From a virus: a stretch of 64,000 nt of DNA. Location: positions 19,578-83,577 of IMG/VR virus record IMGVR_UViG_3300045996_001613, one strand, 5' to 3'. The position numbers were made by a program, and so were the translations under genes. Shown here piece after piece: positions 20,207 to 52,575 of this stretch; the first letter of the stretch is position 1, and each line of letters begins with the position of its first letter. The notes under the pieces are model-generated. The model saw nothing but the letters and a program-made list of their open reading frames with translations, was not told where the DNA came from and did not search any database.

Positions 20207-20231
20207 GTAAAGGCGGAGTCAATGGTATAAT
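20203..20231 (+). promoter_or_regulatory. Sigma70-type promoter for ssb
   Basis: TTGAGT-17 nt-TATAAT with extended TG. Confidence 0.75.
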
Positions 20232-20270
20232 GCTCTGCATGGTACGAAGCGACAGAAAGGATTACGCACT

Positions 20271-20657
20271 ATGGTGAGTTTCAACCGTACCGTTCTCGCC
20301 GGGAACTTGACTCGTGACCCCGAGTTAAGGCACACCAAGGACGGCGTCGCCGTCGTCAACTTGGGACTGGCAGTCAACAGGGTCCGGTCGAAGAATGAGG
20401 AAGTGGACTTCTTCGACGTGACGGCTTGGAGAGAGTTGGCCGAGACAATCGCCAACTACAAGAAGAAGGGTGATCCCATCCTCCTTGAGGGCCGTCTGCA
20501 GTACCGTACGTGGGAGGACAAGGACACCGGGGCCAAGCGGTCCAAGGTGGACGTTGTTGCCGACTCCGTACAGTTCCTCGGTCGAGGCGGAGCCGCGGAG
20601 GATAGCGGCAACGACACGACGGTGGATGAATCCGACTTTGAGGACATTCCCTTCTAG
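20271..20657 (+). CDS. ssb: Single-stranded DNA-binding protein
   Basis: NRTVLAGNLTRDPELR..EGRLQYRTW; C-terminal DIPF. Confidence 0.97.
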   Translation: MVSFNRTVLAGNLTRDPELRHTKDGVAVVNLGLAVNRVRSKNEEVDFFDVTAWRELAETIANYKKKGDPILLEGRLQYRTWEDKDTGAKRSKVDVVADSVQFLGRGGAAEDSGNDTTVDESDFEDIPF

Positions 20658-20696
20658 GCGGACAGGGACCGTGGACCTCACACGTAGGTTGGATTG

Positions 20697-20727
20697 GGCG
20701 ACGCTACTTCCTTGCGTCGCCCCTTTG
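20697..20727 (+). terminator. Putative terminator after ssb
   Basis: GGCGACGC-loop-GCGTCGCC followed by CCTTT. Confidence 0.5.
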
Positions 20728-26303: not shown

Positions 26304-26663
26304 GTGAGTCGTCAGATCACATTCTGGTACGTTGGGGATATAGCTTCCAAATCAAACTACCGATTCGGGTACTCCAAGAAGGCGAAGGATGCGTGGGCGA
26401 AGATCAAGACCTACGAGACCAAGATCGGGGAACTTGCGAACGAGGCCATGGTCCAGAAGGGATTTGTCTCTCGTAGGGGAGATGTAAAAGTGTCAATAGT
26501 AGCGTATAATCAGAAGGTTGACATAGACAACGTGTTCAAGGCAACACTCGATGGCATGGAGGGTATATGCTACCTAAAGGATTCTCAGGTCTCTTCGGTC
26601 GCAGCAAGAAAGGCGAAGGACAAGAAGGGGAAGCGGGCGAGGATAACAGTGACTTGGCTCTAG
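26304..26663 (+). CDS. rusA: RusA-like Holliday junction resolvase
   Basis: SKSN..DIDNVFKATLDG..KDSQV; TAGAAT 6 nt upstream (leaderless). Confidence 0.85.
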   Translation: MSRQITFWYVGDIASKSNYRFGYSKKAKDAWAKIKTYETKIGELANEAMVQKGFVSRRGDVKVSIVAYNQKVDIDNVFKATLDGMEGICYLKDSQVSSVAARKAKDKKGKRARITVTWL

Positions 26664-26893
26664 CCTCTCCGGGCAACGCACTCAAGTCCGTGGCTCATGC
26701 CTTCCGCGTAGTATTCTATGTGTTAGTAGTGATAATCTTCACTCTTTCCATAATGGGCGCTGGCATACACCTTGCCTTTCATGGGGTTGAAGTATCCTCA
26801 GACGCCTCGACGTGGTGGGGTGTGTGGTGGGGCGTCTTGTATACAGGGGCAGGGCTAGCACTGGTGGTCAGCATAGTGAAGTTGGGAGACTAA
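26654..26893 (+). CDS. Membrane protein (2 TM)
   Basis: Two hydrophobic helices; start uncertain. Confidence 0.55.
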   Translation: MALASPGNALKSVAHAFRVVFYVLVVIIFTLSIMGAGIHLAFHGVEVSSDASTWWGVWWGVLYTGAGLALVVSIVKLGD

Positions 26894-26894
26894 C

Positions 26895-27404
26895 ATGGCA
26901 GGTTTTAACCTAGAGAACTACACAGGGTACGAGGCGGCACTAGATCAGGTACATAAGCTGGGGATCTCAAAGACTGACAGCAATGTGGTGCAGTTTCCCA
27001 ATGAGGACAATGGGTGGACCGCGGTGGTGAAGGCCACTATCGTGCTGTCCGATGGCAGAGAGTTTAATGCCCTCGGAGACGCGAACTCAGACAGCATCAA
27101 GAGTGGGAGCATCAAGCCACACTATATCCGCATGGCGGAGACTAGGGCTAAGGGGCGCGTGTACCGGGAGGCGATCAACGACGGTGGCGACCCGGATCTA
27201 GGGTCTGGAAAGATAAGCGGACAGCAGGCTGAGGATCTGATACTCAAGTCTCTCGACGTTCTCGGACAGGGTGGCCCCACTAGGGTCGCGCAGAGATACG
27301 GCAAGGACTACGTCGCGGATCTTACTATGAAGGAAGCCGTACACGCGGGCAACATGCTCGACCGGCAGGTCGAAGAAGCCGCGGCAAAGGACGGTGAGGC
27401 ATAG
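26895..27404 (+). CDS. Putative ssDNA-annealing protein (Rad52/Sak-like)
   Basis: AVVKATIV..FNALGDA..IRMAETRAKGR. Confidence 0.6.
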   Translation: MAGFNLENYTGYEAALDQVHKLGISKTDSNVVQFPNEDNGWTAVVKATIVLSDGREFNALGDANSDSIKSGSIKPHYIRMAETRAKGRVYREAINDGGDPDLGSGKISGQQAEDLILKSLDVLGQGGPTRVAQRYGKDYVADLTMKEAVHAGNMLDRQVEEAAAKDGEA

Positions 27405-27542
27405 CACCGCTTGTAGGTGCTATCGAAGGTTGAGGGGCGCGAGAGAGCCCGAGAGAGATCGGGTGCGCCGTAGCAGGACGCTACGGCAACCGGACAGATG
27501 TCCGGAAAGCGAGGAGACGACACCCCTCCTTTCCCTTCCGCC
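27401..27542 (-). ncRNA. Putative multi-hairpin ncRNA at the convergence point
   Basis: Hairpins ATAGCACC/GGTGCTAT, CCCGA/TCGGG, GCCGTAGC/GCTACGGC, CCGGACA/TGTCCGG; closing GAGGGG/CCCCTC; own promoter. Confidence 0.55.
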
Positions 27543-27546
27543 TTGC

Positions 27547-27576
27547 ATTCTATGCTAAGTCAATGGAATACGTCAA
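27547..27576 (-). promoter_or_regulatory. Sigma70-type promoter
   Basis: TTGACG-18 nt-TAGAAT on the - strand. Confidence 0.7.
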
Positions 27577-27584
27577 GGAATAGG

Positions 27585-27608
27585 AAAGGCCCCCGGTGGA
27601 AGGGGCCT
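27585..27608 (-). terminator. Intrinsic terminator
   Basis: AGGCCCC-loop-GGGGCCTTT. Confidence 0.65.
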
Positions 27609-27630
27609 ACCCGGTTACTTGGCTGATCAC

Positions 27631-27639
27631 ATTATACCA
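27631..27639 (-). promoter_or_regulatory. Extended -10 promoter TGGTATAAT
   Basis: Perfect TGnTATAAT. Confidence 0.65.
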
Positions 27640-27643
27640 CAAG

Positions 27644-27671
27644 AAAAGCCCCCGGCCTCACTCGGGGGCTT
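27644..27671 (-). terminator. Intrinsic terminator
   Basis: AAGCCCCCG-loop-CGGGGGCTTTT. Confidence 0.75.
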
Positions 27672-27705
27672 ATGCAGGAGAAGAACTCCTACGCTGAACG
27701 ATAGT

Positions 27706-27714
27706 ATTATACCA
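27706..27714 (-). promoter_or_regulatory. Extended -10 promoter TGGTATAAT
   Basis: Perfect TGnTATAAT. Confidence 0.65.
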
Positions 27715-27724
27715 TAGGATAGCC

Positions 27725-27748
27725 AAAAGCCCCTCAACCAGAGGGGCC
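27725..27748 (-). terminator. Intrinsic terminator after the beta-helix gene
   Basis: GCCCCTC-loop-GAGGGGCTTTT. Confidence 0.7.
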
Positions 27749-27852
27749 TCAGCCGTGGGACTGATTATGTGTCCTCACCTTTGCGCATACAGAGTATATC
27801 ACACTCTAGAGTGTGGTGTCCTCCGGTCGAATTATCGGACCCATTACACCCC

Positions 27853-28851
27853 TTACTGGTTATTAGCGCAGCGCACTATGTTATCGGGCAGTTCGCAGCC
27901 CTTGAACGTCTCCCCGTTGAAGTCATTGTTCACCACGTCTATGTTAGACAGGTTTACGCGATCCGACCGGCCCGAGTCTGACGCAATCCCCGCGAGGTTC
28001 TTGGCGTTGTTGTCAAACACGTTGCCCTGCACCAGCGCGTTCTGAGAGTCGCGTATACTGACGCCTCCGCGGGTAGCCTCGGTCGAGTTGCCATGTATGT
28101 AGTTATCCTCGATCAGAGCCCCGCCGCTGCAGTTCTCATAGCGCACACCGCCGCGTGTGTTGCCTTCTACGTCGACGTTATGAATCCAGAACCCGTTAGG
28201 ATGGGTGGAACTTGGTGTGCAGCGCACGTCTCCCCATATGCCGTTGCCCTCATTGTCGTGCGCCCATCCACCGGACACCTCGATCACATTGATCGACTTG
28301 ATACCCGAGGACGTGAAGCCGAGGGCCGCGGCGGAACCGTTGTTGTCGAACTCGACGTCAAAGAACTTGCCATTGGCGTTACTTACGCCCATAGCTTCAT
28401 TGTTCGTGAACCGAGAGTTACGGACCACGGTGTTCTGTCCCGCGGAGCCTAGAGCTAATCCTGCACCACTGCCCGCGGACCCATCAAAGTTAGCCCCCTG
28501 TACTTGCACCCAATTTTGCGCATAGGGACCCTCCTTTGGCTTGATCACCTGATCGACGTTGTTAGTGCCGTTGACGATGCTAGTGATGTTCTCCGGATTG
28601 GTGCCGGCGACCGGACGGTTAGACACGGTGCCGGGTACCCCCACGAGTTCGTCTCCCTTGCGGGGCGCGATGGTCGCGGAAGTATTGTACGTACAGGACC
28701 CGAGCTTGAATGTGGTGCCGATGTCCTTGGCGTCGTTATTCACCACATTCGCGAGGTTCGACCCGCAGGGCACGTTGACCGTACGCGAAGCGCCCATCGA
28801 GAAGACCGCGACCACCGCGATCATCAGGGCTATTAGCATTACTTTCCTCAT
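27853..28851 (-). CDS. Secreted right-handed parallel beta-helix protein
   Basis: Signal peptide MRKVMLIALMIAVVAVFSMGA; repeats such as HDNEGNGIWGD, EGNTRGGVRYE, IEDNYIHGN. Confidence 0.8.
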   Translation of the reverse strand: MRKVMLIALMIAVVAVFSMGASRTVNVPCGSNLANVVNNDAKDIGTTFKLGSCTYNTSATIAPRKGDELVGVPGTVSNRPVAGTNPENITSIVNGTNNVDQVIKPKEGPYAQNWVQVQGANFDGSAGSGAGLALGSAGQNTVVRNSRFTNNEAMGVSNANGKFFDVEFDNNGSAAALGFTSSGIKSINVIEVSGGWAHDNEGNGIWGDVRCTPSSTHPNGFWIHNVDVEGNTRGGVRYENCSGGALIEDNYIHGNSTEATRGGVSIRDSQNALVQGNVFDNNAKNLAGIASDSGRSDRVNLSNIDVVNNDFNGETFKGCELPDNIVRCANNQ

Positions 28852-29003
28852 TCATTCCTCCCTTGTTCGGACAGTTGCTTTTCATTCATTTTACGCTGCT
28901 TGCGTGACTCTTTCCACGTCTTGTGTCTTTGGCGCATGGCAAACAGGGTACCCAGCGCAGTGATAGTACCCGTTATGCACAGATAGAATTCTACAGAAGT
29001 CAT
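28848..29003 (-). CDS. Small membrane protein
   Basis: MTSVEFYLCITGTITALGTLFAMRQRHK...; ATGA overlap with the next gene. Confidence 0.5.
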   Translation of the reverse strand: MTSVEFYLCITGTITALGTLFAMRQRHKTWKESRKQRKMNEKQLSEQGRNE

Positions 29004-29014
29004 TAGATTCCTAG

Positions 29015-29086
29015 TTGGGTATGTGGGGGTCGAACCCACCATTTCCGAGTTCCGAACCCGGAGTCACACCCCGCGACTTATACCCA
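29015..29086 (-). tRNA. tRNA-Pro(CGG), atypical D-arm and A8
   Basis: Acceptor TGGGTAT/ATACCCA; anticodon arm CCGGG-TTCGGAA-CTCGG; T-arm GTGGG-TTCGACC-CCCAC. Confidence 0.75.
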
Positions 29087-29110
29087 GCGATTACTCTGAA
29101 CGTATATCGC

Positions 29111-29264
29111 TAGGTCGTGGTCGATGTGAGTTTCCTGTGGTGATGTCCATAGGCCCATGATAACACATGATACGGCGCAGGCTCCCTCGTAACACACCTA
29201 CGCCCTGAAGAGGACTCCATACGGGGAGTCGAACCCCACGCCTCTCCACCCGGTCCACACCCTA
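29111..29264 (-). ncRNA. Putative structured RNA with a T-loop hairpin
   Basis: Ends pair (TAGG..GTGG/CCAC..CCTA); GGGG-TTCGACT-CCCC; GGCGTAGG/CCTGCGCC. Confidence 0.45.
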
Positions 29265-29266
29265 CG

Positions 29267-29338
29267 TCGCGGGCTTGGGAATCGAACCCAATATCTCCGG
29301 CGTATGAAACCGGCGAGTTACCATTTCTCCTGCCCGCA
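29267..29338 (-). tRNA. tRNA-Met(CAT), initiator-like, with A8
   Basis: TGCGGGC/GCCCGCG (U1.G72); GAG/CTC D-stem; CCGGT-TTCATAC-GCCGG; TTGGG-TTCGATT-CCCAA. Confidence 0.85.
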
Positions 29339-29340
29339 AT

Positions 29341-29576
29341 GTGCCGGACGCGCCCTCGCTTCCCGGCGTGGGTACCCCGCTATGTCCACCCTTCCGTTTT
29401 ACGGCCAAGGGCACGGCACCCGTCCCAATTTAGGCCGGACTCACCCCTCTGCTATCCGACTTGGGCCACTCCTCTTCACCTCGCGTGACCTCGCCCAACC
29501 GCGGCCTCCCACCATACGTACCGCGTATTTACAGGAACCGTCGGATGTCCCGCAACCCGTCCCACAGTGGAGACTC
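29341..29576 (-). ncRNA. Putative structured ncRNA between tRNA-Asn and tRNA-Met
   Basis: ATCCGAC/GTCGGAT, TTGGGC/GCCCAA, CGCGGT/GCCGCG, GGGTGCC/GGTACCC, GCCGGG/TCCGGC; TGGGACGGGT twice. Confidence 0.5.
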
Positions 29577-29579
29577 GTG

Positions 29580-29652
29580 CTGCGACGGTAGGAATCGAAC
29601 CTACAACCTTCGCCTTAACAGGGCGCTGCTCTGCCTGTTGAGCTACACCGCA
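29580..29652 (-). tRNA. tRNA-Asn(GTT)
   Basis: Canonical cloverleaf: GCTC/GAGC D-stem, CTGTTAA loop, GTAGG-TTCGATT-CCTAC, G73. Confidence 0.93.
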
Positions 29653-42927: not shown

Positions 42928-43752
42928 CTAATGTAATATGCCCCATTTTAGCTTACTTGCATACCTTGCACCACCGTCACCACCGCCGCCGGTAATGTCT
43001 ATAACCGTCTGGTTACTGGAGTTGTCGTCCCACGCATTTACGCCGGGACCCCTGAAGTCCATGTTGGGACGCTGTGTCAATGGTACGCCCTCGTTTTCTA
43101 TGATGTGCCCGCCGCTTTGCTGGATTGCTTCGACGATAGTTACATCGCCCACGGCACTGTCGGTCAGGTTGAAGTGGTCGTCCCTAAACCTCAACCTCGA
43201 CCTCTGGCTCATAGAGGTTCCGCCGTCTTGGATGATGTGGCCTGCGAGCTTCGCTTCCAAGGGGTCGAGCATCGCGTCCGTCTCCGCCTCGGTGTAGTAG
43301 CGCGTGTCGTGGTTGTGCGTGGTGCTCGACTTAGTCGCGAGTAGTGCGTCTATCTCGGCATCGGAGTAGGTCTCGGCCTTGGTGTAGTAGTTGTCCAGAG
43401 CAGCGCCGACTTGCTCCCCGCCGAAGTCCTCGTGGAAGTACAGGACCTCCAACGTCGTGCCTGCAGGGATATTGGTGTTGGTTACCGTACCCGCGGCGTA
43501 GTTGATGGTGTAATTAGTCCCCTTGGTGTATACCAAACCATCCGACTGCCGGCGGACCTTCTCAGAATTCTTCACTAGGGTGGTGAATTCCAAGTCTATT
43601 AGTCCCGCGGCAGATGGAGCCGTCTTAACCTCGCTGTAATACTTCTCGGTCTCAGTCGAGCCCCCGAGCTTGATCATAGTCGAGTTGGCTTCGGGGTCCT
43701 GTCTCCGGCTCTTGCCGGTCTTCATTCGTGCTAGTGAGTGTGGTACGGGCAC
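42928..43752 (-). CDS. Minor tail/fibre protein
   Basis: GTNYTINY, YYTKAE/YYTEAE, HIIQDGG/HIIENEG repeats. Confidence 0.75.
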   Translation of the reverse strand: MPVPHSLARMKTGKSRRQDPEANSTMIKLGGSTETEKYYSEVKTAPSAAGLIDLEFTTLVKNSEKVRRQSDGLVYTKGTNYTINYAAGTVTNTNIPAGTTLEVLYFHEDFGGEQVGAALDNYYTKAETYSDAEIDALLATKSSTTHNHDTRYYTEAETDAMLDPLEAKLAGHIIQDGGTSMSQRSRLRFRDDHFNLTDSAVGDVTIVEAIQQSGGHIIENEGVPLTQRPNMDFRGPGVNAWDDNSSNQTVIDITGGGGDGGARYASKLKWGILH

Positions 43753-46700
43753 TAGACTCCCCCTATCCCCATCGCGCTAATTGTTGGCGGCGACACCGCC
43801 ACGGCCCTGCCGAGGAAGTAGTCCGCGTACCCGGAGTCCCGGTTGGCTAGACCCTGCTGGTGCGCCACTGCGCCATCCACGACTCCCTTGAATACACATT
43901 CGTGTATGCTGAGGTTTCCGTTACTACTAAGGGAGTGGACGGTCTTCATTATCATGAACCTCATGTAGAAGTTTCTCGACGGCTTTGCGACGATTATCTG
44001 GTGTCTAAACCTCGCACGCATGTTTAGGGGCGTGGCTATGGTGACATTAAGCCCGGTCTTCATCATCGCGGCCTGCTGCTTCGCGTGATCTATGCATTGC
44101 TGGTCGGTCCACTCCGGGAGTGCCTGAATACGCAGAATGCTCGTCGGATCTACCGAGAACATTGTATCAACCGGCTCCAGCCACGAAAAGGAGGGGATCG
44201 CGACTACGCCACCCCGTACGCTCTCGGGCCTATAGACCTCGACGCCGAAGTGCACCTCCATCGCGTCGTAGTTGCGGGTAAACTCGATCAGGTCTATGTA
44301 CTCATTATGCACCCAAAAGATGTCTAGTGGCTCGGGAGGCACGATCTCAATGTTGTAGTCACCGGGGTCGAAGACCACGTAACCGAGATAATCCGCCAGC
44401 CACCAGATCGCATCCCATATCCTTGTCCCGGCTTCAAAGCACTTCGTGAAGTTGCGGTCACGCTCGTCCTCATACGTGACATTCGCGGGGTCTACGCCCA
44501 CTCGGGCTGCTAGCTCATTCAGGACGGCGCGTGCACTGGCATCTGTGTAACAGGTCTTCTCCGCGAAGGTGTCGTCGGTCGAGTACGGCGGGTCGACCAC
44601 TACATCTATGTCGGTTCCGTCCGGCCACGGGTCGGGTATCACTCCGCCGCCGTCGCCGGGGACCCCGATGTCTCCGCCTCCACCCCAATCTCCGCCGCTT
44701 CCGGGTCCGGTTCCGCCACTCCATCCACCACCGTCGTATCCGCCGCCTCCACTGCCTCCGCCGCTGCCAGATCCGCAGGGGTCATACCCCTCCATCGCGG
44801 GCAACTCAAAGCAGGGGTCTATCGGAAATTCGGGTATGGTGATCTCTCCGATTTCGCCGCATCCGAAGCAAGGCATTTCAGGGTATTCCCAATCAGCAGG
44901 GAAGGGGTCGGGGAAGTACGGCGCGATGTCGGCTCCGGGCAGGTAGTCGGGCATTACTCCGGGGAACTCGGGGGTCTCTATGTCGTCGGGCATGGGAGTG
45001 GAAAATTCGGGCATGGGGAACTGGTTTGGCCCGGTCGGGAAGTTCCCCTCGACGTTAGGGAATGTGGGGTCGGTTGGATCAAATATCGGGTCTGTAGGGT
45101 CAAATGAGGGGTCGAACGGGTTGTTGAATTCAGGGTTATTAAAGTTCGGGTCGTTGGGGTTGTCGAAGTCTGGGTCAGTGAAGTCCGGATTCTCGGGGTT
45201 CTCCGGCCATGTGTCCGGGTTCTCAGGGTCGAAGTTGGGGTCTTCGGGGTTGAAGTCCGGGGGCCATGTATCCGGATTATTGGGGTCGAAGTTCGGCCCC
45301 CCTCCCGGCAGGAAGTTCCCCGGATCAGGCGTGAAGGGCTTCGGATAGTCGGGATCATCGCCCGTCGGGGGTCCCGGAGGCTGAGACCACGGCGTAGGGC
45401 CACCCGTAGGACCGTCGCCACCCTCGGGTTGCGGGTCATTGTCTCCGGGTTGCGCGTCACTGTTGTCCCCACCCGACGGGTTACCGTTGGGGCAGGGGTT
45501 CAAGGTGATGCTGTTGCCCGCGACGGGCTCTTGCATAACACGAGATGGCGTGCGTACGGCACCGCCGCCGGGTTGAGGCACGGTCGAGGTGTCCCAATCG
45601 TATCCCCACGCGTATGCCACCCCATTAATGATCCCAAACATGTGATAGCGGCCCGCGGCCAGCTTGTCGTAGGCTTCCAGATGGGGGTGATGTGTAGGGG
45701 TGGTGACATACAGGTTGGTGTTGTCTGGGTCCCCTAGCATGCCATACCAGTTAGAGCCCCACGCATGACGCCCCACGATTGCGGTGACCTCAGAGGCACC
45801 GTCGGCTACTATTGAAGACCACCCGGCGCACACCCATTCTGCGCCGTTGAATGGCGGCTCCCCCTGTGGACCCACCTGACCGAATACGCTACTCCACTCA
45901 CTCCAGTGCGCTAGGTTGTCCGTATCACCTTCGCCTAACTGACCCTGGTTGTTGTTTCCGAAGTTGAATACATTCTGGGTACTAGCGGTGGTATAGAGGT
46001 TGTACCCCGCCATTTCTATTGCTGCTGCAGATATGCTGGGTCCGGGGTACTCTAGAGGCGCGTAGTCGCCTCCAGCGTCGTCGGGTACGGACTTCAGGAA
46101 GTCGTCTACTGTCTCCCCGAATCCTCCATACCCCCACGTGCACAAGACTCCATTGCCCATGACGGCTGCGGCGGACTCGTCTCCTGTAGCAAATTCCTCT
46201 ACCGCGGTGTTGCTCACATTTGTAAAATTTACCTGTGTCCATGTTAGGGCCGACTGATAGCACCTCTGCTGGAACGCCTGACCCGTGGACACCCACTCGC
46301 CCCCGGTCCCAAGCGTCCCGTGCTCAGATCCCCCGATTACGTAGAGGGTGCTGCCGGTCTTGCAAAACATGTGCCACTTTTCCCCCTTTAGCTCCATGTC
46401 CGGGTTGCCCTGCAGGTCAAATGCGGCTGGCAGCGTGCCGGGAACCTGCTCGAATTCTGAAGGCCAGTAGCTCGACGAGAGGGTCAGCCTGCCCTTGTAC
46501 CATACCGTGCCGTCGTCCTTGAGTACATACGTTGCGATTTCGTTGGTTGCAATCGCAACACCGCCGGGGACGTTGCCCTCAAAGTGAGCGAAGTCACTGC
46601 CCGTCAAGTTTCCCCACTCCCACACGTCTCCGTTAGCATACAATGCTACGGACCTGCCGGTGAAGTTGTTGCGGCCCGCGGCATCAATGTCAATAATCCC

Positions 46701-48002
46701 TCCGGGAGCCGGATCTTGAATCCAATTCTTGTCTATAATGGGGCTGGTCGGAGTCTGGACCTCTGCGCCCCACTCCTGATCCTCAGTACCAAGGTTGAGT
46801 TCGTCGCTGGACCCCCATACCTTCAAGGTACACCCCTGCTCCAAGGCGATTCCTTGGTAAGGCCCCGTCTTGATCTTCACTGCAGTAATGCCTATGGGCT
46901 GAAAGGAAAAATCGTAATTGTTGGCAGTGTCGCGGCCTAGCGCCGAGTCGTAATTCCATCCTGTAGTCTGGACATTGTTATCTCCGTCTATAATGGCCGT
47001 CCAGTCGTCCCCGCAAGACACGGCTTTTGCCGTTATGCCCGGAACCTGTACGGGTTCATAGTGCTCTCCGTCTCCATCTTCGTTGAGTCCCAAGCCGGAT
47101 TCCCACCCTAGACCCCACAAGGTGCCATCTTTCTTGATAAACAGTCCGTGTTCATTGCCCGCGGACATCGACTGCACATCGGTGGCTATCACTCGGGGGG
47201 TACGTACATAATCGTTGTCATACGGGTCTAGTCCCAAGGTCCCATAGAACGCGGCTCCCCATCCCAGCAGGGTGCCATTGCCCTTCAACGCATAAAAAAA
47301 CTCGCCTTCCGAGCTGACCGAGACACTAACAATTTCGTCGAGAAAGTGTGCGCGTGTTGGCACGTATATTCCGGAAAATTCCTCCGAGGAACTAGCTTGG
47401 TAGTAGGAGTCGTCCCCCCATGTCCACAGCCGACCGTCGGTGTCAATTGCCATGAAGGTTGCTCCGTTGTGGCCCGCGGCCACCTGCGTGAATTGAGGAG
47501 TGTTGGGTATCTCCTTCCACACATAGTGTTCCCAATTACCGGGAGGGTTCATGGTGTCGTCTACGCCCTCCCCGAGGCCCAGAGAGTTCCCTCCCCAACC
47601 AGCATTGTCACCGACGGCCCACGCGGTGCCATCGTAACGCAGAGCTATTGAATTATCGTAGGTCATTGCTATGTTAAAAACATTGTCCAGACCTAGATAG
47701 TGGAAGGGGTAGGACCACTCCGTGTCGTTGGTGTCTCCGAGGTCTCCGGTTACGTGCTGCCAGTATCCCATAGCGAGTCCATACCCAGCCCCCCACGTCT
47801 TACCATCGTCGGAGACGACAATAGTAGCATCGTACGTTAGTGCAAAGTCTACGAGGGTGGGGCTGCTCGGGATTTCCCCTTCTTCCGCGGTGATCCGTAG
47901 CTGTTCTATCCCCTTACGGCGTCGGGCGTGCCGACCAAACCTCAGCTTGGGCTGTCCGGCCTCCGCGAGGCGACGGCGGAGATGCAGGGGGATTTCCCTC
48001 AC
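43752..48002 (-). CDS. RCC1/BLIP-II-repeat tail protein with P/D/N-rich linker and C-terminal hub-like domain (paralog 2)
   Basis: Repeats such as DGRLWTWG, GTLLGWG, DGTLWGLG; C-terminal TRIWDAIWWLADYLGYVVF. Confidence 0.8.
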   Translation of the reverse strand: MREIPLHLRRRLAEAGQPKLRFGRHARRRKGIEQLRITAEEGEIPSSPTLVDFALTYDATIVVSDDGKTWGAGYGLAMGYWQHVTGDLGDTNDTEWSYPFHYLGLDNVFNIAMTYDNSIALRYDGTAWAVGDNAGWGGNSLGLGEGVDDTMNPPGNWEHYVWKEIPNTPQFTQVAAGHNGATFMAIDTDGRLWTWGDDSYYQASSSEEFSGIYVPTRAHFLDEIVSVSVSSEGEFFYALKGNGTLLGWGAAFYGTLGLDPYDNDYVRTPRVIATDVQSMSAGNEHGLFIKKDGTLWGLGWESGLGLNEDGDGEHYEPVQVPGITAKAVSCGDDWTAIIDGDNNVQTTGWNYDSALGRDTANNYDFSFQPIGITAVKIKTGPYQGIALEQGCTLKVWGSSDELNLGTEDQEWGAEVQTPTSPIIDKNWIQDPAPGGIIDIDAAGRNNFTGRSVALYANGDVWEWGNLTGSDFAHFEGNVPGGVAIATNEIATYVLKDDGTVWYKGRLTLSSSYWPSEFEQVPGTLPAAFDLQGNPDMELKGEKWHMFCKTGSTLYVIGGSEHGTLGTGGEWVSTGQAFQQRCYQSALTWTQVNFTNVSNTAVEEFATGDESAAAVMGNGVLCTWGYGGFGETVDDFLKSVPDDAGGDYAPLEYPGPSISAAAIEMAGYNLYTTASTQNVFNFGNNNQGQLGEGDTDNLAHWSEWSSVFGQVGPQGEPPFNGAEWVCAGWSSIVADGASEVTAIVGRHAWGSNWYGMLGDPDNTNLYVTTPTHHPHLEAYDKLAAGRYHMFGIINGVAYAWGYDWDTSTVPQPGGGAVRTPSRVMQEPVAGNSITLNPCPNGNPSGGDNSDAQPGDNDPQPEGGDGPTGGPTPWSQPPGPPTGDDPDYPKPFTPDPGNFLPGGGPNFDPNNPDTWPPDFNPEDPNFDPENPDTWPENPENPDFTDPDFDNPNDPNFNNPEFNNPFDPSFDPTDPIFDPTDPTFPNVEGNFPTGPNQFPMPEFSTPMPDDIETPEFPGVMPDYLPGADIAPYFPDPFPADWEYPEMPCFGCGEIGEITIPEFPIDPCFELPAMEGYDPCGSGSGGGSGGGGYDGGGWSGGTGPGSGGDWGGGGDIGVPGDGGGVIPDPWPDGTDIDVVVDPPYSTDDTFAEKTCYTDASARAVLNELAARVGVDPANVTYEDERDRNFTKCFEAGTRIWDAIWWLADYLGYVVFDPGDYNIEIVPPEPLDIFWVHNEYIDLIEFTRNYDAMEVHFGVEVYRPESVRGGVVAIPSFSWLEPVDTMFSVDPTSILRIQALPEWTDQQCIDHAKQQAAMMKTGLNVTIATPLNMRARFRHQIIVAKPSRNFYMRFMIMKTVHSLSSNGNLSIHECVFKGVVDGAVAHQQGLANRDSGYADYFLGRAVAVSPPTISAMGIGGV

Positions 48003-51000
48003 TACACACCCCCGATCCCCATATTGGACGGATTCGCGGGCGAGTAATCTGCAGGCTTGCCGAGGAAGTAATTCGCGTACCCGGACTCAGAGTTCGCGAG
48101 TCCCATCTGGTGTGCTATATCGCCGGTTAGGACGCCTTTGTACATGCATTCGTGAATGGAGAGGTTGCCATTATTGCTCAATGAATGCACCGTTTTCATA
48201 ATCATGAAGCGCATGTAGAAGTTCTTGGAGGGCTTCATGACGATTATCTGGTGACGGAATCTGGCACGCATGTTCAGGGGCGTGGCAATCGTGACGTTGA
48301 GTCCGGTCTTCATCATCGACGCCTGCTGTTTAGCATGATCTATGCATTGTTGGTCGGTCCAGTCTGGCAATGCTTGGATGCGCAGGATGTTGGTGGGGTC
48401 GACGGAGAACACCGTGTTGACTGGCTCTAGCCATGCGAAGGACGGAATTGCCACCACACCACCGCGGACACTCTCAGGTCTATAGACCTCGACGCCGTAA
48501 TATACCTCCATCGCATCGTAGTTGCGGGTGAACTCGATCAGGTCTATGTACTCGCTGTGGACCCAAAAGATATCCAGAGGCTCGGGAGGCACGATCTCGA
48601 CGTTGTAGTCACCGGGGTCAAAGACGACGTATCCAAGGTAGTCTGCCAGCCACCAGATCGCGTCCCATACACGCGTACCGGCCTCAAAGCACTTCGTGAA
48701 GTTGCGGTCACGCTCGTCCTCGTAGGTTACGGTCGCGGGGTCGACACCCACGCGGGCTGTCAATTCCTCTAGGGCAGCGCGTGCGCTGTGGTCCGTATAG
48801 CACGTCTTCTCCGCAAAGGTGTCGTCAGTCGAGTACGGGGGGTCAATGGTGTAGTCTATGTCTCCACCACCGGGCCATGGATCGGGTACCACTCCCCCGC
48901 CGTCTCCGGGCACGCTGCCCCAATCGCCTCCGCCTCCCCAATCTCCGCCGGACCAGTCGCCGCCACCGCCGGACCAATCGCCGCCACTTCCTCCGCCACT
49001 TCCTCCGCCACCTCCCCAATCACCTCCACCACCGCCGCAGGGGTCGTATCCACCCATCGGAGGTAGCTCGAAGCAAGGATCTATGGGGAATTCAGGTATC
49101 GTGATCTCTCCGACCTCTCCGCATCCGAAGCAGGGCATCTCGGGAAATTCAAAGTCGGGAGGGTATGGGTCGGGGAAGATGGGCATGACTGGCGCTCCGG
49201 GCAGGAAGTCGGGGTTGATGTCGCCAAAGTCGTCATATAGGAAGTCGGGCATAGGCTGAGAGAAATCCCCCATTGGGAACTGGTTAGGTCCAGTCGGGAA
49301 GGCCCCCTCGACGTTGGGAAACTCGGCACCGAAGTCACCGAAGTTCGGATCGTCCGGGTTTTCAAAGGACGGGTCGAAGGGTCCTCCGGGGGGCTCAAAG
49401 GTGGGTCCGACGGGCTCTTGGAATGACGGATCGTCTGGCATAAAGTCGTCCGGCCACGTATTCGGATCGAGAGGATCGAAGTTGGGGTCCTCGGGGTCGA
49501 AGTCGTCCGGCCATGTATCCGGGTTGTTTGGATCGAAGGGTGGGGCTCCGTCGGGTAGGAAGTTCCCCGGATCAGGCGTGAACGGTTTCGGGTAGTTCGG
49601 GTCGGACCCATCTGGAGGAGGGGGCGCAGGGGGCTCGTATGGGTTGTAGTTCGGGTCCGTGGGGTCCGGGGCACTGCCATCCGGGTACTGCCCCCCGTTA
49701 CCGCCGTCGGCGTCGCTGTTGTCACCATTGGTGGAGCTACTAATTGGACACATATTCAGGTATACAGTGTCCTCCTCGTCCGTGTACTGTGCGCCTAGTG
49801 ACGGGACTATGTTCTCCTCCACTCCATACTCTTCACCGAGGCCACCGTTGCTTGCCCACTCTCCCCACGCATACAGCACGCCATCTTTTATCGCGGTGCC
49901 GTGCACCGTTCCCAGCGACACCTCGTCGGGGTCGAACGCTTCCAGATTTGTAAGTTGTACAGGCGTGGAGAATATCCGATTGTATTGGTTGCCCTCCACT
50001 CCGCTTGCGTCTATGTCTGCCCTGATTTCCCCCCATGCCCATATGTCGCCGTTCGTGTCCATTACAAAGATAGCTTTCAACCCCCTCGCGAGGAAGCGGT
50101 CTATGGGTGGTAGGTCGGGAGCACCGGGTGTCTGGTCTCCGGATCTCAAGCTATGTACGGAGCTTGAAAACGGACGGTCGCCCATCTCCCCGCTGCTGTT
50201 GCCCCCATAGCAGGTTATAGATCCGTCCGCATGCAGCACTTCGGTATTTTGAGACCCGACGGATATAGCCACTCCCGTGACGCTTGTTAGGTGAGGCACA
50301 CTGGCACCCACTCCGCCGTCCGTCAAGTACCCGGTGTCAATAAGACCGCCAGTGTAGTTGCCACCCCATGTGTATATGTTCCCATTCTCGTCTATTGCTA
50401 CGGAGTGCGTTACCCCGGCCTTCACGTCGACAATTCCGCTGAGTCCCGGATTACCAAGCGGACCTAGAGCCCCTGAGGGAGTGGATTGTCCACAGATCCA
50501 GGTGTCGCCCGGACCGTCTGTGTACTCTCCGCCGATACCAAGCTGCCCATATGACGCGCCACCCCACGCGTATATCTCTCCCGCGGCATTTAGTCCAAAG
50601 ACTCGATTGCCTTCGAGTTGCCCATAGTTGTACCCATTACGGGTTGCTGATATCTTGACAATGCCAGAGAACCCGGATATCTGCACGAATCCTCCGACAT
50701 CGTGATTTATGTACCACACCGTACCATCCGATGTTAGGACAAATATGTACATCCCGGTGCACTGCACCTGTATGGCGTTGGGCACGACGCCGATTTGATG
50801 AGGAAACATTGTCCATTCCTCGGGGAAATAGGCGTAGGGCACGGTCCAGAATCCTCCCCACGCATACACGTTGCCGTCCGAGGTTATGGCGGCGCTGCCA
50901 ACAGCCGTACTGTCAACGTCTATGAAGTTGACCGGCAGGGTTTCGCGCTGCTCCTCCTTATTGGTGATGGCTTTTGCGGGTGTAACCCGATAGTTTGAGT

Positions 51001-52183
51001 TCTCGTCGACTATGCCAATATCATTCAAACCCCAGCACCACAACTCACACCCCGGCATTATTGCAAGGCCAATTTGCGGTCCGGCAAATATCTTGCCAGC
51101 CCCCGTCATAAAGTCCCCGTTACCCTTCTTAGCCTTGCCGAACACGTCGTTGGTTCCCACCGCGGGGGGCACGCGACACAGCACCCCATTACCACTGTAC
51201 CCACACGTCCATATCTGACCAGTGCCCTGTTCTATAAACATGGACCATTCCATGCCACAGGATATATCGGTGGCGAGTAGGTCAGGCACTTGTGTAGGGG
51301 TCTCGTGAGCATTGTAGTTCGCCTGTCCTATCATGTAGCCCTCACCGAGGCCCCACACGGTTCCGTCGGTCTTTATGTACATGGTATGGAACAGTCCGCA
51401 AGACACCTTACTAACGCCAGAGTCCACCTGAGAAGGAGATTGACGCCAGTCCCCCTGCGAGACGCCTGTACCAATGTCCCCGTAGTGCTGGTTTCCCCAC
51501 ATCCACAACGTGTTATCGTTCTTGATTACTCCCACGTGCTCACCGCCAAGGGATATGTACCGTACGCCAGTCAGGTTGTGCACATTCGTGGGCACATTGA
51601 AGCTCAGGATAGAAGGGTGTATCTGATAGTCTGACGCATCGCCCCAACCCCATACGGTGCCGTCGTTACGGAGAGCAAACACAAGGTTTTCAGCAGTGGC
51701 TATTTGTATGATACCGCTTAGGCCGGGAACCTTGACCCAATCATATCCCTGTTGCGCTTCATTCCACGTCGTATCCTGAGATCCCAACCCTAGTGCGCCT
51801 AACCCCTCGCCTTCTCCCGTCACCCACACCGTGCCGTCGTTCTTGAGTACAACCCCTACTTCGTAGTGCGTCATGCGAAACATCTTGGCATTGCCTATCC
51901 CGAGGAAGTGCCACGGATAAGAGTAGTTCTCATAACCAAACTTGTCGGGGTCGTTCTCCCCGTATCCCAGCGGTGCAGCTATGCCGGTACCCCATACCTG
52001 CCCATTGTCTAGCACGGCTCCGCAGGAGTTCCAACCCGCGGAGATATCCGTAGTACCCGCGGTCGCGGCGGCACGGAATGCTTCGGGATGGAATTTGGGC
52101 TTGCGAAAGCGCATGCCAACGCCACCCCCGCGGGCGATACGTCGACGAACGTTTGCAGGAATAGACTTGGGATTGATAGCCAT
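48002..52183 (-). CDS. RCC1/BLIP-II-repeat tail protein with P/D/N-rich linker and C-terminal hub-like domain (paralog 1)
   Basis: DGTVWGWG, DNTLWMWG..GDIG, NGNIYTWG; C-terminus near-identical to 43752-48002. Confidence 0.8.
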   Translation of the reverse strand: MAINPKSIPANVRRRIARGGGVGMRFRKPKFHPEAFRAAATAGTTDISAGWNSCGAVLDNGQVWGTGIAAPLGYGENDPDKFGYENYSYPWHFLGIGNAKMFRMTHYEVGVVLKNDGTVWVTGEGEGLGALGLGSQDTTWNEAQQGYDWVKVPGLSGIIQIATAENLVFALRNDGTVWGWGDASDYQIHPSILSFNVPTNVHNLTGVRYISLGGEHVGVIKNDNTLWMWGNQHYGDIGTGVSQGDWRQSPSQVDSGVSKVSCGLFHTMYIKTDGTVWGLGEGYMIGQANYNAHETPTQVPDLLATDISCGMEWSMFIEQGTGQIWTCGYSGNGVLCRVPPAVGTNDVFGKAKKGNGDFMTGAGKIFAGPQIGLAIMPGCELWCWGLNDIGIVDENSNYRVTPAKAITNKEEQRETLPVNFIDVDSTAVGSAAITSDGNVYAWGGFWTVPYAYFPEEWTMFPHQIGVVPNAIQVQCTGMYIFVLTSDGTVWYINHDVGGFVQISGFSGIVKISATRNGYNYGQLEGNRVFGLNAAGEIYAWGGASYGQLGIGGEYTDGPGDTWICGQSTPSGALGPLGNPGLSGIVDVKAGVTHSVAIDENGNIYTWGGNYTGGLIDTGYLTDGGVGASVPHLTSVTGVAISVGSQNTEVLHADGSITCYGGNSSGEMGDRPFSSSVHSLRSGDQTPGAPDLPPIDRFLARGLKAIFVMDTNGDIWAWGEIRADIDASGVEGNQYNRIFSTPVQLTNLEAFDPDEVSLGTVHGTAIKDGVLYAWGEWASNGGLGEEYGVEENIVPSLGAQYTDEEDTVYLNMCPISSSTNGDNSDADGGNGGQYPDGSAPDPTDPNYNPYEPPAPPPPDGSDPNYPKPFTPDPGNFLPDGAPPFDPNNPDTWPDDFDPEDPNFDPLDPNTWPDDFMPDDPSFQEPVGPTFEPPGGPFDPSFENPDDPNFGDFGAEFPNVEGAFPTGPNQFPMGDFSQPMPDFLYDDFGDINPDFLPGAPVMPIFPDPYPPDFEFPEMPCFGCGEVGEITIPEFPIDPCFELPPMGGYDPCGGGGGDWGGGGGSGGGSGGDWSGGGGDWSGGDWGGGGDWGSVPGDGGGVVPDPWPGGGDIDYTIDPPYSTDDTFAEKTCYTDHSARAALEELTARVGVDPATVTYEDERDRNFTKCFEAGTRVWDAIWWLADYLGYVVFDPGDYNVEIVPPEPLDIFWVHSEYIDLIEFTRNYDAMEVYYGVEVYRPESVRGGVVAIPSFAWLEPVNTVFSVDPTNILRIQALPDWTDQQCIDHAKQQASMMKTGLNVTIATPLNMRARFRHQIIVMKPSKNFYMRFMIMKTVHSLSNNGNLSIHECMYKGVLTGDIAHQMGLANSESGYANYFLGKPADYSPANPSNMGIGGV

Positions 52184-52575
52184 TAAGGTACAAAGCCCAA
52201 TCGTAACAAGAATAGCTTTAGGTCATACTGAGAGTAGGTGCGTATTCTAGGATCGCGCTTGGGCTGGGCCATAGCGAACGCCTGTACATCGTAGGCCCCG
52301 CCTTCAAGGTCGAAGTACCGAAACACCGTAAGATGCTTGCATGCGATTACGAGTTCCCACATGAGTGTAAGTTTCATGACAGGATGCTTCGCGTCGAATC
52401 GCCAGTCGGTCTCGGTGACGAACTCACCGACCGAGACCTCCTGCAGCAACGAGACGCCTGCGGTAGTGCGTAGCCGAGGCTGCATGTATTCCAGCGTCCA
52501 TCCCTCCCAATTCGGGAGTTGACGATTCGCCATCACCTTGCCATCGGACTTACGTAGTAACTGCGTGGCAGGCAC
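52183..52575 (-). CDS. Putative distal tail protein
   Basis: Lies directly after the tape measure gene; 130 aa. Confidence 0.55.
   Translation of the reverse strand: MPATQLLRKSDGKVMANRQLPNWEGWTLEYMQPRLRTTAGVSLLQEVSVGEFVTETDWRFDAKHPVMKLTLMWELVIACKHLTVFRYFDLEGGAYDVQAFAMAQPKRDPRIRTYSQYDLKLFLLRLGFVP

What the first reader, a model, noticed from the sequence alone, without database searches (positions are those of the whole stretch)
27401..27750. Tandem array of tiny promoter-RNA-terminator units at the strand convergence
Seen on the - strand, in order: terminator (27748-25); TGGTATAAT (27714-06); ~55 nt containing hairpin GTAGGAG/CTCCTGC and a terminator (27671-44); TGGTATAAT (27639-31); ~40 nt ending in a terminator (27608-585); TTGACG-18-TAGAAT; then a ~140-nt multi-hairpin RNA. 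The three terminators share GCCCC..GGGGC(C)TTT, while the segments between them are unique and have no ORF. Inference: an array of independently transcribed small RNAs with a constant 3' hairpin and a variable 5' part (antisense/guide-like or sponge), or empty moron slots left after gene loss.
Basis: partly seen in the sequence, partly recalled or inferred. Interest (0 to 1): 0.72.

Follow-up and report, generated by a model that had tools for sequence, protein, structure and literature searches.

The report
Gene-less promoter-terminator units in a phage
Where the two big gene blocks of an uncultured soil phage run into each other there is a short stack of strong promoters, each followed almost at once by a terminator with no gene in between, so the phage probably makes several tiny non-coding RNAs there whose role is still unknown.

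Summary
On the - strand of the 448-nt gap 27405-27852, three GC hairpin terminators alternate with two exact TGGTATAAT boxes and one TTGACG-18-TAGAAT promoter. A 147-nt strongly folding stretch follows, and I add a possible fourth unit upstream.

This is not chance:
- GCCCC-N3-14-GGGGC occurs three times in the 83.6-kb genome, all here.
- TGGTAYNAT occurs 8 times, all intergenic. Four copies sit exactly 6 nt before the ATG of a leaderless ORF, so it is the phage's real promoter box.
- The two array copies have no start codon, and every ORF in the gap scores as non-coding.

The phage is a long-tailed siphovirus-like virus, not N4-like.

I read the array as locally duplicated terminator-promoter cassettes forming gene-less transcription units (about 65, 57, 42 and at least 150 nt). 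Most likely they buffer the convergence of the two blocks; less likely they are trans-acting sRNAs.

"Empty moron slots" is possible but less likely.

I found no expression data and no orthologous region in relatives, so function remains inferred.

Scores: interest 0.5; new variant of a known kind.

The parts
26895..27404 (+). Last gene of the + (replication/recombination) block, 169 aa (P0001). Its stop codon TAG at 27402-27404 lies inside the last hairpin of the 147-nt element.
   Evidence: ORF list and translation. Weak hit to phrog_22961. Only distant homologues, at most 48% identity over half the length.
27395..27541 (-). Unit 3 product (inferred): a 147-nt multi-branch structured element with three internal hairpins inside a closing stem plus a terminal hairpin. 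It ends antisense to the stop codon of P0001.
   Evidence: Fold -68.2 kcal/mol, z -4.5. The + strand folds equally well. No Rfam family. No coding potential. A 33-nt core (27437-27469) recurs with 2 mismatches in another organism's contigs in 4 of 4 runs laid.
27547..27576 (-). P3: TTGACG-18-TAGAAT, directly after T3.
   Evidence: 10 of 12 consensus matches. Not significant on its own; its position repeats the terminator-then-promoter order.
27587..27608 (-). T3: hairpin AGGCCCC-TTCCAC-CGGGGGCCT followed by TTTCCTATT (weak T-run).
27583..27624 (-). Unit 2 product (inferred): about 42 nt, a 16-nt single-stranded 5' part plus T3. The start is placed 7 nt after the -10 box, by analogy with the leaderless genes.
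   Evidence: There is no start codon at the inferred start.
27631..27639 (-). P2: exact extended -10 box TGGTATAAT, 4 nt after the T-run of T2.
27646..27671 (-). T2: 9-bp hairpin AAGCCCCCG-(loop)-CGGGGGCTT followed by TTCTTG.
27641..27699 (-). Unit 1 product (inferred): about 57 nt, consisting of a 7-nt 5' tail, the 7-bp hairpin GUAGGAG/CUCCUGC (27692-27674) and T2.
   Evidence: Fold -28.9 kcal/mol, z -3.7. No start codon.
27706..27714 (-). P1: exact extended -10 box TGGTATAAT, 10 nt after the T-run of T1.
27725..27748 (-). T1: hairpin GGCCCCTC-TGGTT-GAGGGGC followed by TTTTGG. It is the first terminator after the last gene of the - block.
27793..27822 (-). Possible P0: AGGACA-18-TATACT preceded by TG (TGATATACT). 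It overlaps a perfect 16-bp palindrome at 27800-27815 and would give an RNA of about 65 nt (27786-27722) ending at T1.
   Evidence: 9 of 12 matches, TG present. Palindrome: (one of 4 perfect 16-mers in the genome, so weak on its own).
27853..28851 (-). Last gene of the - block: a 332-aa protein with a hydrophobic N-terminus and a right-handed beta-helix (P0002).
   Evidence: PF13229, 29.8 bits. A 44%-identical homologue sits at a different genome position in the nearest relative.

Best explanation
The gap holds a stack of three, possibly four, gene-less transcription units on the - strand. They are built from one composite cassette, an intrinsic terminator immediately followed by a promoter, that was duplicated locally.

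Mechanism:
- The host RNA polymerase with its primary sigma factor starts at each extended -10 box. No -35 element is needed, and that position is occupied by the preceding hairpin.
- It stops 40-65 nt later at the next GC hairpin.
- The last promoter gives a structured RNA of at least 150 nt that ends antisense to the stop codon of the opposing operon.

Most likely role: a buffer where the 27-kb + block and the 36-kb - block converge. Three terminators in series stop the late operon. The abundant short - strand RNAs, and the polymerases that make them, are exactly antisense to any read-through from the + block. That block has no recognisable terminator of its own. This is the way lambda oop RNA opposes the 3' end of cII.

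Shown: the motifs, their non-random clustering, the absence of genes, and the validity of the promoter box in this genome.

Inferred: that the units are transcribed (my estimate 0.75), that the cassettes are paralogues, and the buffering role (about 0.4 overall).
For: - Promoter box is validated internally. TGGTAYNAT occurs 8 times against 3.2 expected, and all 8 are intergenic although intergenic DNA is 12.8% of the genome.
- 4 of the 8 lie exactly 6 nt before an ATG that opens ORFs of 46-228 aa.
- The third exact TGGTATAAT drives the SSB gene.
- In the relative G003, an exact TGGTATAAT precedes a gene-less leader and tRNA-His.
- The terminators are unique in the genome and clustered.
- The same terminator-then-promoter order brackets single small genes in the early-left cluster, so the cassette is a working unit of this phage.
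- All three array hairpins share arms found nowhere else in the genome. Loops and spacers differ, while the stems, the T-runs and both 9-nt boxes are intact. This fits old local duplication with selection on both halves.
- There is no coding potential in the gap.
- No + strand terminator-like site lies in 27405-27852. Only T2 read backwards passes my looser scan.
- The other convergence in the genome is served by one bidirectional hairpin, which shows that this stack is something extra.
Against: - I found no RNA data: no listed run that holds the phage is an RNA run, so transcription is not shown.
- No relative covers the orthologous region, so there is no conservation or covariation test.
- The buffering role is an argument from position only.
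- Promoter-bound or short-range polymerases are not known to be good roadblocks (recalled: in coliphage 186 the elongating polymerase wins).
- P3 and P0 are ordinary consensus matches.
- T3 has a poor T-run.
- The host is unknown, so promoter and terminator rules are assumed to be the common bacterial ones.
Confidence: 0.4

Rival explanations
1. Trans-acting small RNAs. Each unit is an sRNA gene with a short unique 5' part plus a terminator hairpin. The 5' part base-pairs with host (or other phage) RNAs, or the abundant hairpin RNAs act as decoys for a host RNA-binding factor or defence system.
For: - The architecture (strong promoter, 16-38 nt unique 5' segment, terminator with U tail) is that of minimal bacterial sRNAs.
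- The two promoters are the best consensus in the genome, the class that also drives SSB, and a tRNA in G003. That suggests high output.
- Phage non-coding RNAs of unknown role made at high level are documented for L5/D29 (PMC5712189, passages read) and phiKZ/PAK_P3 (PMC10914365, passages read).
Against: - No target in the phage. The best duplexes of the three 5' parts with 116 start regions (-34.1, -28.8, -17.3 kcal/mol) equal the shuffled-seed means (-32.0, -28.4, -17.3).
- The 12-mer matches to the rest of the genome are at chance level.
- No Rfam family.
- The host genome is unknown, so the main prediction is untested.
- The location exactly at the block convergence is not explained.
Confidence: 0.25
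2. Vestigial scars. These are terminator-promoter cassettes left stacked at a recombination-prone module junction after moron-type genes were lost or moved. Any transcripts are by-products.
For: - The same cassette type flanks single small genes elsewhere in the genome.
- The neighbouring gene P0002 (and endonuclease VII) lies at a different genome position in the nearest relative, so this junction has been rearranged.
- Each hairpin is directly preceded by a stop triplet (TGA, TAA, TAG).
- Unit 1 holds an AGGAG, as a fused 5' UTR and gene end would.
- PeSL cassettes in T4-like phages mediate exactly such gene gain and loss (PMC2839356, passages read).
Against: - Recombination between two cassettes leaves one chimeric cassette, not two separated by 16-38 nt (PMC2839356, passage on ORF192). 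Two or three near-complete internal deletions side by side would be needed.
- The three hairpins share arms unique in the genome, so they look like copies of each other, not remnants of three different morons.
- Both promoters are perfect consensus rather than decayed.
- No similarity of the inter-element segments to any gene of this genome or of G001/G003.
Confidence: 0.2
3. A DNA-level element, such as a replication origin or other protein-binding region. The promoters would serve transcriptional activation or priming, and the hairpins and the 10-nt tandem repeat (27437-27456) would be binding sites.
For: - Cumulative GC skew peaks at 26-28 kb.
- The region lies at the end of the replication/recombination module.
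- It is a large, structured, gene-free gap with a GCGCGAGAGA/GCCCGAGAGA tandem repeat and a 16-bp palindrome.
Against: - The skew switch coincides with the coding-strand switch and needs no origin.
- There is no AT-rich unwinding element and no iteron family.
- Transcripts that are terminated and released cannot prime.
- The palindrome is one of 4 in the genome.
Confidence: 0.07
4. Only tandem terminators matter: the promoter-like boxes are incidental and silent.
For: Serial terminators at the end of a heavily transcribed operon are common (recalled). Neither box has a -35 element.
Against: Two exact 9-nt copies of the box lie 75 nt apart, and this box is otherwise found only in intergenic DNA before genes. 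Extended -10 promoters do not need a -35 element (established knowledge).
Confidence: 0.05

Closest known systems
PeSL cassettes (promoter-early stem-loop) of T4-like phages
   Same: A composite unit made of a G/C-tract stem-loop terminator followed by a strong sigma-70-type promoter. It is repeated in a genome, sits between small non-essential genes, and is tied to gene shuffling (PMC2839356, passages; PMC4122927, abstract). The order of parts is the same here.
   Different: PeSLs share about 100 bp of sequence and flank ORFans. Here similarity is limited to the functional motifs. The array cassettes flank no gene, they are stacked 63-77 nt apart, and the virus is a siphovirus-like soil phage with leaderless genes.
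Lambda oop RNA and P22 sar RNA
   Same: Phage RNAs of 68-77 nt, each with its own promoter and terminator, transcribed against a converging gene and acting as antisense (PMC12197685, passages). Unit 3 here ends antisense to the stop codon of the opposing gene.
   Different: Those are single units with a defined overlap with their target mRNA. Here there are three or four units in tandem, two of them wholly within the gap. No sequence relation.
Short terminated transcript of lambdoid late promoter PR' (6S RNA, StxS)
   Same: A constitutive strong promoter followed at once by a terminator gives a short RNA that can itself act as an sRNA (PMC7547250, only the abstract start in the search listing was seen).
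   Different: There the unit is a switch for antitermination into late genes downstream. Here no gene lies downstream on that strand.
Abundant non-coding RNAs of mycobacteriophages L5/D29/StarStuff
   Same: Highly expressed, stable, gene-less transcripts from a strong early promoter in a siphovirus, function unknown (PMC5712189, passages).
   Different: Those come from a region of about 500 bp at the genome end with one promoter. They are experimentally seen; the units here are not.
Morons
   Same: Autonomous promoter-X-terminator units inserted between phage genes (discussed in PMC2839356, passage; otherwise recalled).
   Different: A moron carries a gene. These units carry none.
Tandem sibling sRNA genes of bacteria (e.g. 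LhrC1-5, PrrF1/2; recalled, no call)
   Same: Several short sRNA genes in a row, each with its own promoter and terminator.
   Different: Siblings share the seed sequence. Here the 5' parts are unrelated and only the promoter and terminator are alike.

Membership tests
Intrinsic (Rho-independent) terminator | GC-rich hairpin directly followed by a T/U run on the transcribed strand | tested here: met
   T1 and T2 are clear. T3 has only TTT then CCTATT. Activity was not measured.
Extended -10 promoter of the primary sigma factor | TGnTATAAT box. It should be non-random in the genome and sit correctly before genes | tested here: met
   Exact TGGTATAAT twice in the array. All 8 TGGTAYNAT sites are intergenic, and 4 of the 8 lie 6 nt before a leaderless ATG. 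Activity was not measured.
PeSL-type terminator-promoter cassette | Stem-loop terminator immediately followed by a strong promoter | tested here: met
   T1-P1, T2-P2 and T3-P3, plus three cassettes in the early-left cluster.
PeSL-type terminator-promoter cassette | About 100 bp of sequence conserved among many copies in the genome | tested here: not met
   Mean column identity 59% over 3 copies, carried by the motifs. Loops and spacers are unalike. The early-left cassettes have other stems.
PeSL-type terminator-promoter cassette | Flanks ORFans in hyperplastic regions of T4-like myoviruses | tested here: not met
   No ORF between the array cassettes. The virus has a 3,523-aa tape-measure ORF and siphovirus-type head genes.
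Moron | Promoter, protein-coding gene, terminator | tested here: not met
   No start codon at or near the inferred starts. All ORFs in the gap score as non-coding.
CRISPR mini-array or solitary repeat units | Identical repeats at regular spacing with spacers of about 30-40 nt | tested here: not met
   The hairpins share only 5-nt arms, and the spacings are 77 and 63 nt. The family definition is recalled.
Base-pairing sRNA | Short transcript with a terminator hairpin and a seed complementary to target mRNAs | tested here: inconclusive
   The shape fits. No phage target was found above shuffled controls. Host targets are not testable because the host is unknown.
Any Rfam family, tRNA or tmRNA | Covariance-model or ARAGORN match | tested here: not met
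   Only chance-level hits at E above 2 in 26500-29000. At gathering score only the five tRNAs are found. ARAGORN finds nothing in the gap.
Cis-antisense RNA of the oop type | Own promoter, transcript overlapping the 3' end of a converging gene | tested here: inconclusive
   The inferred unit 3 RNA reaches the stop codon of P0001, and the only candidate 3' end is a weak hairpin at 27409-27392. The true 3' end is unknown.

The most novel reading that the evidence does not exclude
The array is a dedicated small-RNA battery. Tandem duplication of a terminator-promoter cassette has produced several very high-output units. Their 40-65-nt hairpin-capped RNAs, together with a 150-nt structured RNA whose 33-nt core is kept almost unchanged in a second organism from the same soils, act on the host as decoys or sponges for an RNA-binding defence or decay factor. 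This would be a kind of phage counter-measure not yet described for virulent siphoviruses.
Probability: 0.2. Interest if true: 0.75.

Novelty: new variant of a known kind. Interest (0 to 1): 0.5.

Why it matters
If the units are transcribed as predicted, this would be a compact natural example of promoter-terminator cassettes used without a gene. They would serve either as an insulator between two converging operon blocks or as a factory for very small RNAs.

Both cases bear on how phages manage head-on transcription and on the still small catalogue of non-coding RNAs from virulent phages. The parts would also be short, strong and well insulated, which makes them useful as tools.

The internal validation of a promoter box linked to leaderless genes gives a handle on the transcription programme and the likely host type of an uncultured phage lineage.

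If the units are silent scars, the locus still marks a junction where modules have moved between related phages.

Tried and rejected
- **N4-like phage.** This was my first guess from the 3,523-aa ORF. I rejected it: the ORF matches tape-measure families, and the head genes are siphovirus-type.
- **Expression.** No RNA holder is listed among 6 runs. The four runs laid are DNA contigs identical to the window, with no variants, indels or joints, so they give no population-level test.
- **Close relatives.**
  - blastn of 26800-28900 against phage records gave no match.
  - Single-protein scans of IMG/VR with P0001, P0002, the exonuclease and the RNA ligase gave 0 relatives each.
  - DnaB gave 10 loci at 35% identity or less.
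  - The portal gave 3 fragments at 65% identity. None of the 3 holds P0001 or DnaB.
  - The P0001 family alignment gave 1 viral and 50 metagenome loci, all distant. None has any similarity to the gap.
- **Architecture pattern in IMG/VR.** 5 loci from 2 unrelated lineages, with no blastn or tblastx similarity to this phage. They are analogues at most.
- **The 33-nt match in another organism.**
  - It is not elsewhere in this genome.
  - Its two flanks differ from each other, so it is not a CRISPR spacer.
  - An 18-nt core typed from the window found 23 genome loci, all unrelated, with 8-14 of the 15 flanking positions mismatched.
  - A covariance model of the 147-nt element found only itself in 65 sources (419 kb) and in 0 of 5 genomes.
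  - BLAST of 27395-27545 in 401 + 401 genomes gave 5 and 11 chance-level hits (E 2.5e-4 to 0.009 per genome). None covers the core as a 31-of-33 match.
  - I did not type the flank letters printed into any tool, so that contig was not retrieved.
- **RNA-RNA pairing inside the array.** There is an 11-nt perfect match between 27428-38 and 27729-39. However, duplex energies of units 0-2 with unit 3 are no better than with shuffles; the fraction of shuffles at least as good is 0.90, 0.98 and 0.48.
- **Integration site.** No tyrosine integrase was found in the genome, while the control rang in 14 of 14 genomes.
- **Palindrome as operator.** There is no second copy with 3 or fewer mismatches.
- **Supplementary files of the papers.** I did not consult them.
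Full report
**Setting**

The window is bases 19578-83577 of an 83,577-bp virus record with direct terminal repeats. Near-identical DNA is held by soil metagenome runs from three studies.

I first took the 3,523-aa ORF for an N4-type virion polymerase. It matches tape-measure families instead. The left 19.6 kb carries major head, protease, portal and minor tail genes. This is therefore a long-tailed, siphovirus-like phage, and no tyrosine integrase was found.

A rough gene call shows a + block from about window -830 to 27404. It holds SSB, DnaB, a methylase, an RNA ligase and RusA. A - block runs from 63.9 kb down to 27853. It holds tail genes, an exonuclease, endonuclease VII, three tRNAs and a secreted-looking beta-helix protein, P0002. 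The two blocks converge on the 448-nt gap 27405-27852.

**The observation**

Reading 5' to 3':
- T1: 27748-27725.
- TGGTATAAT: 27714-27706.
- A 7-bp hairpin: 27692-27674.
- T2: 27671-27646.
- TGGTATAAT: 27639-27631.
- T3: 27608-27587.
- TTGACG-18-TAGAAT: 27576-27547.
- A 147-nt stretch that folds into a closing stem with three internal hairpins plus a terminal hairpin. The energy is -68.2 kcal/mol, z = -4.5. The opposite strand folds equally well.

I add a possible fourth unit upstream. AGGACA-18-TATACT with a TG lies at 27822-27793. It overlaps a perfect 16-bp palindrome. It would give an RNA of about 65 nt ending at T1.

**Is it more than chance?**

Yes, on several counts:
- The motif GCCCC-N3-14-GGGGC occurs three times in the whole genome, and all three are T1-T3.
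- A strict terminator scan requires at least 6 Watson-Crick pairs, at least 5 of them G-C, and at least 3 T in the next 5 bases. It finds 7 sites on the - strand of the genome, 3 of them here.
- Exact TGGTATAAT occurs three times in the genome, two of them here.
- When sites are placed at random within intergenic DNA only, two of three boxes fall within 100 nt on one strand in 2.1% of trials. Three of seven terminators fall within 160 nt in 1.3% of trials.

**Are the boxes real promoters?**

The genome itself answers this.
- TGGTAYNAT occurs 8 times against 3.2 expected. All 8 are in intergenic DNA, which is 12.8% of the genome.
- Four of the eight sit exactly 6 nt before an ATG that opens an ORF of 46, 59, 124 or 228 aa. 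That is, they drive leaderless mRNAs.
- The third exact TGGTATAAT precedes the SSB gene, which is closed by a strong hairpin at 20696-20722.
- In the nearest relative available (G003; portal 65% identical; colinear over the structural and early genes), the same box occurs twice. One exact TGGTATAAT is followed by a gene-less leader with a strong hairpin and then tRNA-His.

So the box is the phage's own strong promoter signal, and the two array copies are its best versions. They differ from the others in one respect: no start codon at the expected start and no ORF behind them. All seven ORFs of 32-71 aa overlapping the gap score between -0.04 and -0.32 per codon. The 69 small called genes score 0.18 +/- 0.095.

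**What the array is made of**

In each unit the terminator is followed at once by the next promoter. The same order is seen in the leftward early cluster outside the window: hairpin, T-run, TTGAC-type -35, then TGGTAYNAT. There it brackets single small genes. The cassette is therefore a working module of this genome.

This is the architecture described as PeSL in T4-like phages. Those are stem-loops rich in G and C tracts followed by strong sigma-70-type promoters, flanking ORFans and mediating their gain and loss (PMC2839356, passages; PMC4122927, abstract).

Two things set the array apart from that family:
- Sequence similarity among cassettes is confined to the functional motifs.
- The array cassettes flank nothing.

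The three array hairpins share arms that occur nowhere else in the genome. The other terminators of the phage use other stems. That points to local duplication of one cassette rather than three independent remnants. Loops (5, 8 and 6 nt) and the spacers to the -10 box (10 and 4 nt) have diverged. The stems, the T-runs and both 9-nt boxes are intact. I read that as selection on both the terminator and the promoter halves. This step is inference.

**What it probably does**

Transcription by the host polymerase from the extended -10 boxes should give RNAs of about 57 and 42 nt, about 65 nt if P0 is real, and an RNA of at least 150 nt from P3. I put the chance that the short RNAs exist at about 0.75.

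For their role I favour a buffer at the convergence, about 0.4 overall.
- The late operon meets three terminators in series.
- The + block has no terminator-like site of its own in the gap. Only T2 read backwards passes a looser scan.
- Any + strand read-through would therefore be exactly antisense to abundant short RNAs and would meet polymerases coming the other way. This is comparable to lambda oop opposing the end of cII (PMC12197685, passages).
- The genome's other convergence makes do with a single bidirectional hairpin.

This role rests on position only.

**Rivals**

- *Trans-acting sRNAs or decoys (0.25).* This fits the shape and the promoter strength. Abundant phage non-coding RNAs of unknown role are documented (PMC5712189 and PMC10914365, passages). 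However, I found no phage target above shuffled controls, and the host is unknown.
- *Vestigial scars (0.2).* The junction has evidently been rearranged: the P0002 homologue of G003 (44% identity, E 6e-75) lies elsewhere, converging on tRNA-His. Each hairpin is preceded by a stop triplet. Against this, recombination between cassettes leaves a single cassette (PMC2839356, passage). The shared unique arms and the perfect boxes also argue against decay.
- *A DNA-level element such as an origin (0.07).*
- *Silent boxes (0.05).*

**An unresolved lead**

When contigs of four runs were laid on 26700-28500, the phage's own pieces were identical to the window. A second, longer contig also appeared in each of the 4 runs (3 studies). 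These were 0.7-8.4 kb at a depth of 5-8, and they matched 27437-27469 with 2 mismatches. That stretch is the central hairpin of the 147-nt element.

The 30-nt flanks printed there differ from the window but contain short 4-bp inverted repeats where the window has its neighbouring hairpins. The left flank resembles the window's closing-stem strand apart from a small indel. This is what a homologous structured element would look like. Stems that short are weak evidence, though.

I could not retrieve the contig:
- An 18-nt core found only unrelated genome loci.
- A covariance model found only itself.
- BLAST in 802 genomes gave only chance-level hits.

**Verdict**

The feature is real, non-random and gene-less, and its promoter and terminator parts are credible by internal evidence. 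Its expression and function are not shown.

It is best filed as a new variant of known kinds: phage terminator-promoter cassettes and phage non-coding transcription units. It is not a new class. Interest 0.5.

Supplementary files of the cited papers were not seen. They may hold cassette alignments that bear on the PeSL comparison.

Noticed in passing
window 34086, 20223, 538; L002 18581, 17985, 16022 (= window -996, -1592, -3555): The promoter box TGGTAYNAT is tied to leaderless genes. In 4 of 8 copies an ATG lies exactly 6 nt after the box and opens an ORF of 46-228 aa. This suggests a host in which leaderless translation is common (that link is recalled, not tested).
   Followed up: partly
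window 27437-27469: A 33-nt stretch recurs with 2 mismatches in longer contigs of another organism in all 4 soil runs laid. The flanks also form short hairpins. The contig could not be retrieved.
   Followed up: partly
window 27800-27815: A perfect 16-bp palindrome, CACACTCTAGAGTGTG, overlaps a promoter-like site just after the stop of P0002. It may be an operator. There is no second copy in the genome, and it is one of 4 perfect 16-mers.
   Followed up: partly
L096 4752-5819 (+) and 5822-6104 (-) (relative G003): The beta-helix gene next to the array has a 44%-identical homologue at a different genome position in the nearest relative. There it converges on tRNA-His, which is preceded by an exact TGGTATAAT and a gene-less leader of about 115 nt with a strong hairpin.
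   Followed up: partly
L002 15704-15854 (-): Two more tRNA genes (His, Phe) lie outside the window, downstream of a TGGTACTAT promoter and a 46-aa leaderless ORF. With Pro, Met and Asn at window 29014-29652, the phage carries five tRNAs.
   Followed up: no
L002 15325-15348 (= window -4252 to -4229): The genome's other convergence has a single hairpin, AAGGGACCCC-TTCG-GGGGTCCTTT, flanked by A and T runs. It is a textbook bidirectional terminator.
   Followed up: no
window 20223-20722: The SSB gene is a self-contained unit: exact TGGTATAAT, gene 20271-20657, strong hairpin 20696-20722.
   Followed up: no
window 43752-63147 (-): A very large tape-measure ORF (3,523 aa) with many internal repeats (multiple offset tblastx hits). 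Next to it are two adjacent ORFs of about 1,400 aa that match the same RCC1-like PHROG families.
   Followed up: no
L058-L061 (IMG/VR, unrelated low-GC phage lineage): Downstream of a gene's terminator lies a TGGTATAAT followed by about 60 nt and a second terminator. This is a single gene-less promoter-terminator unit of the same design in an unrelated phage.
   Followed up: no
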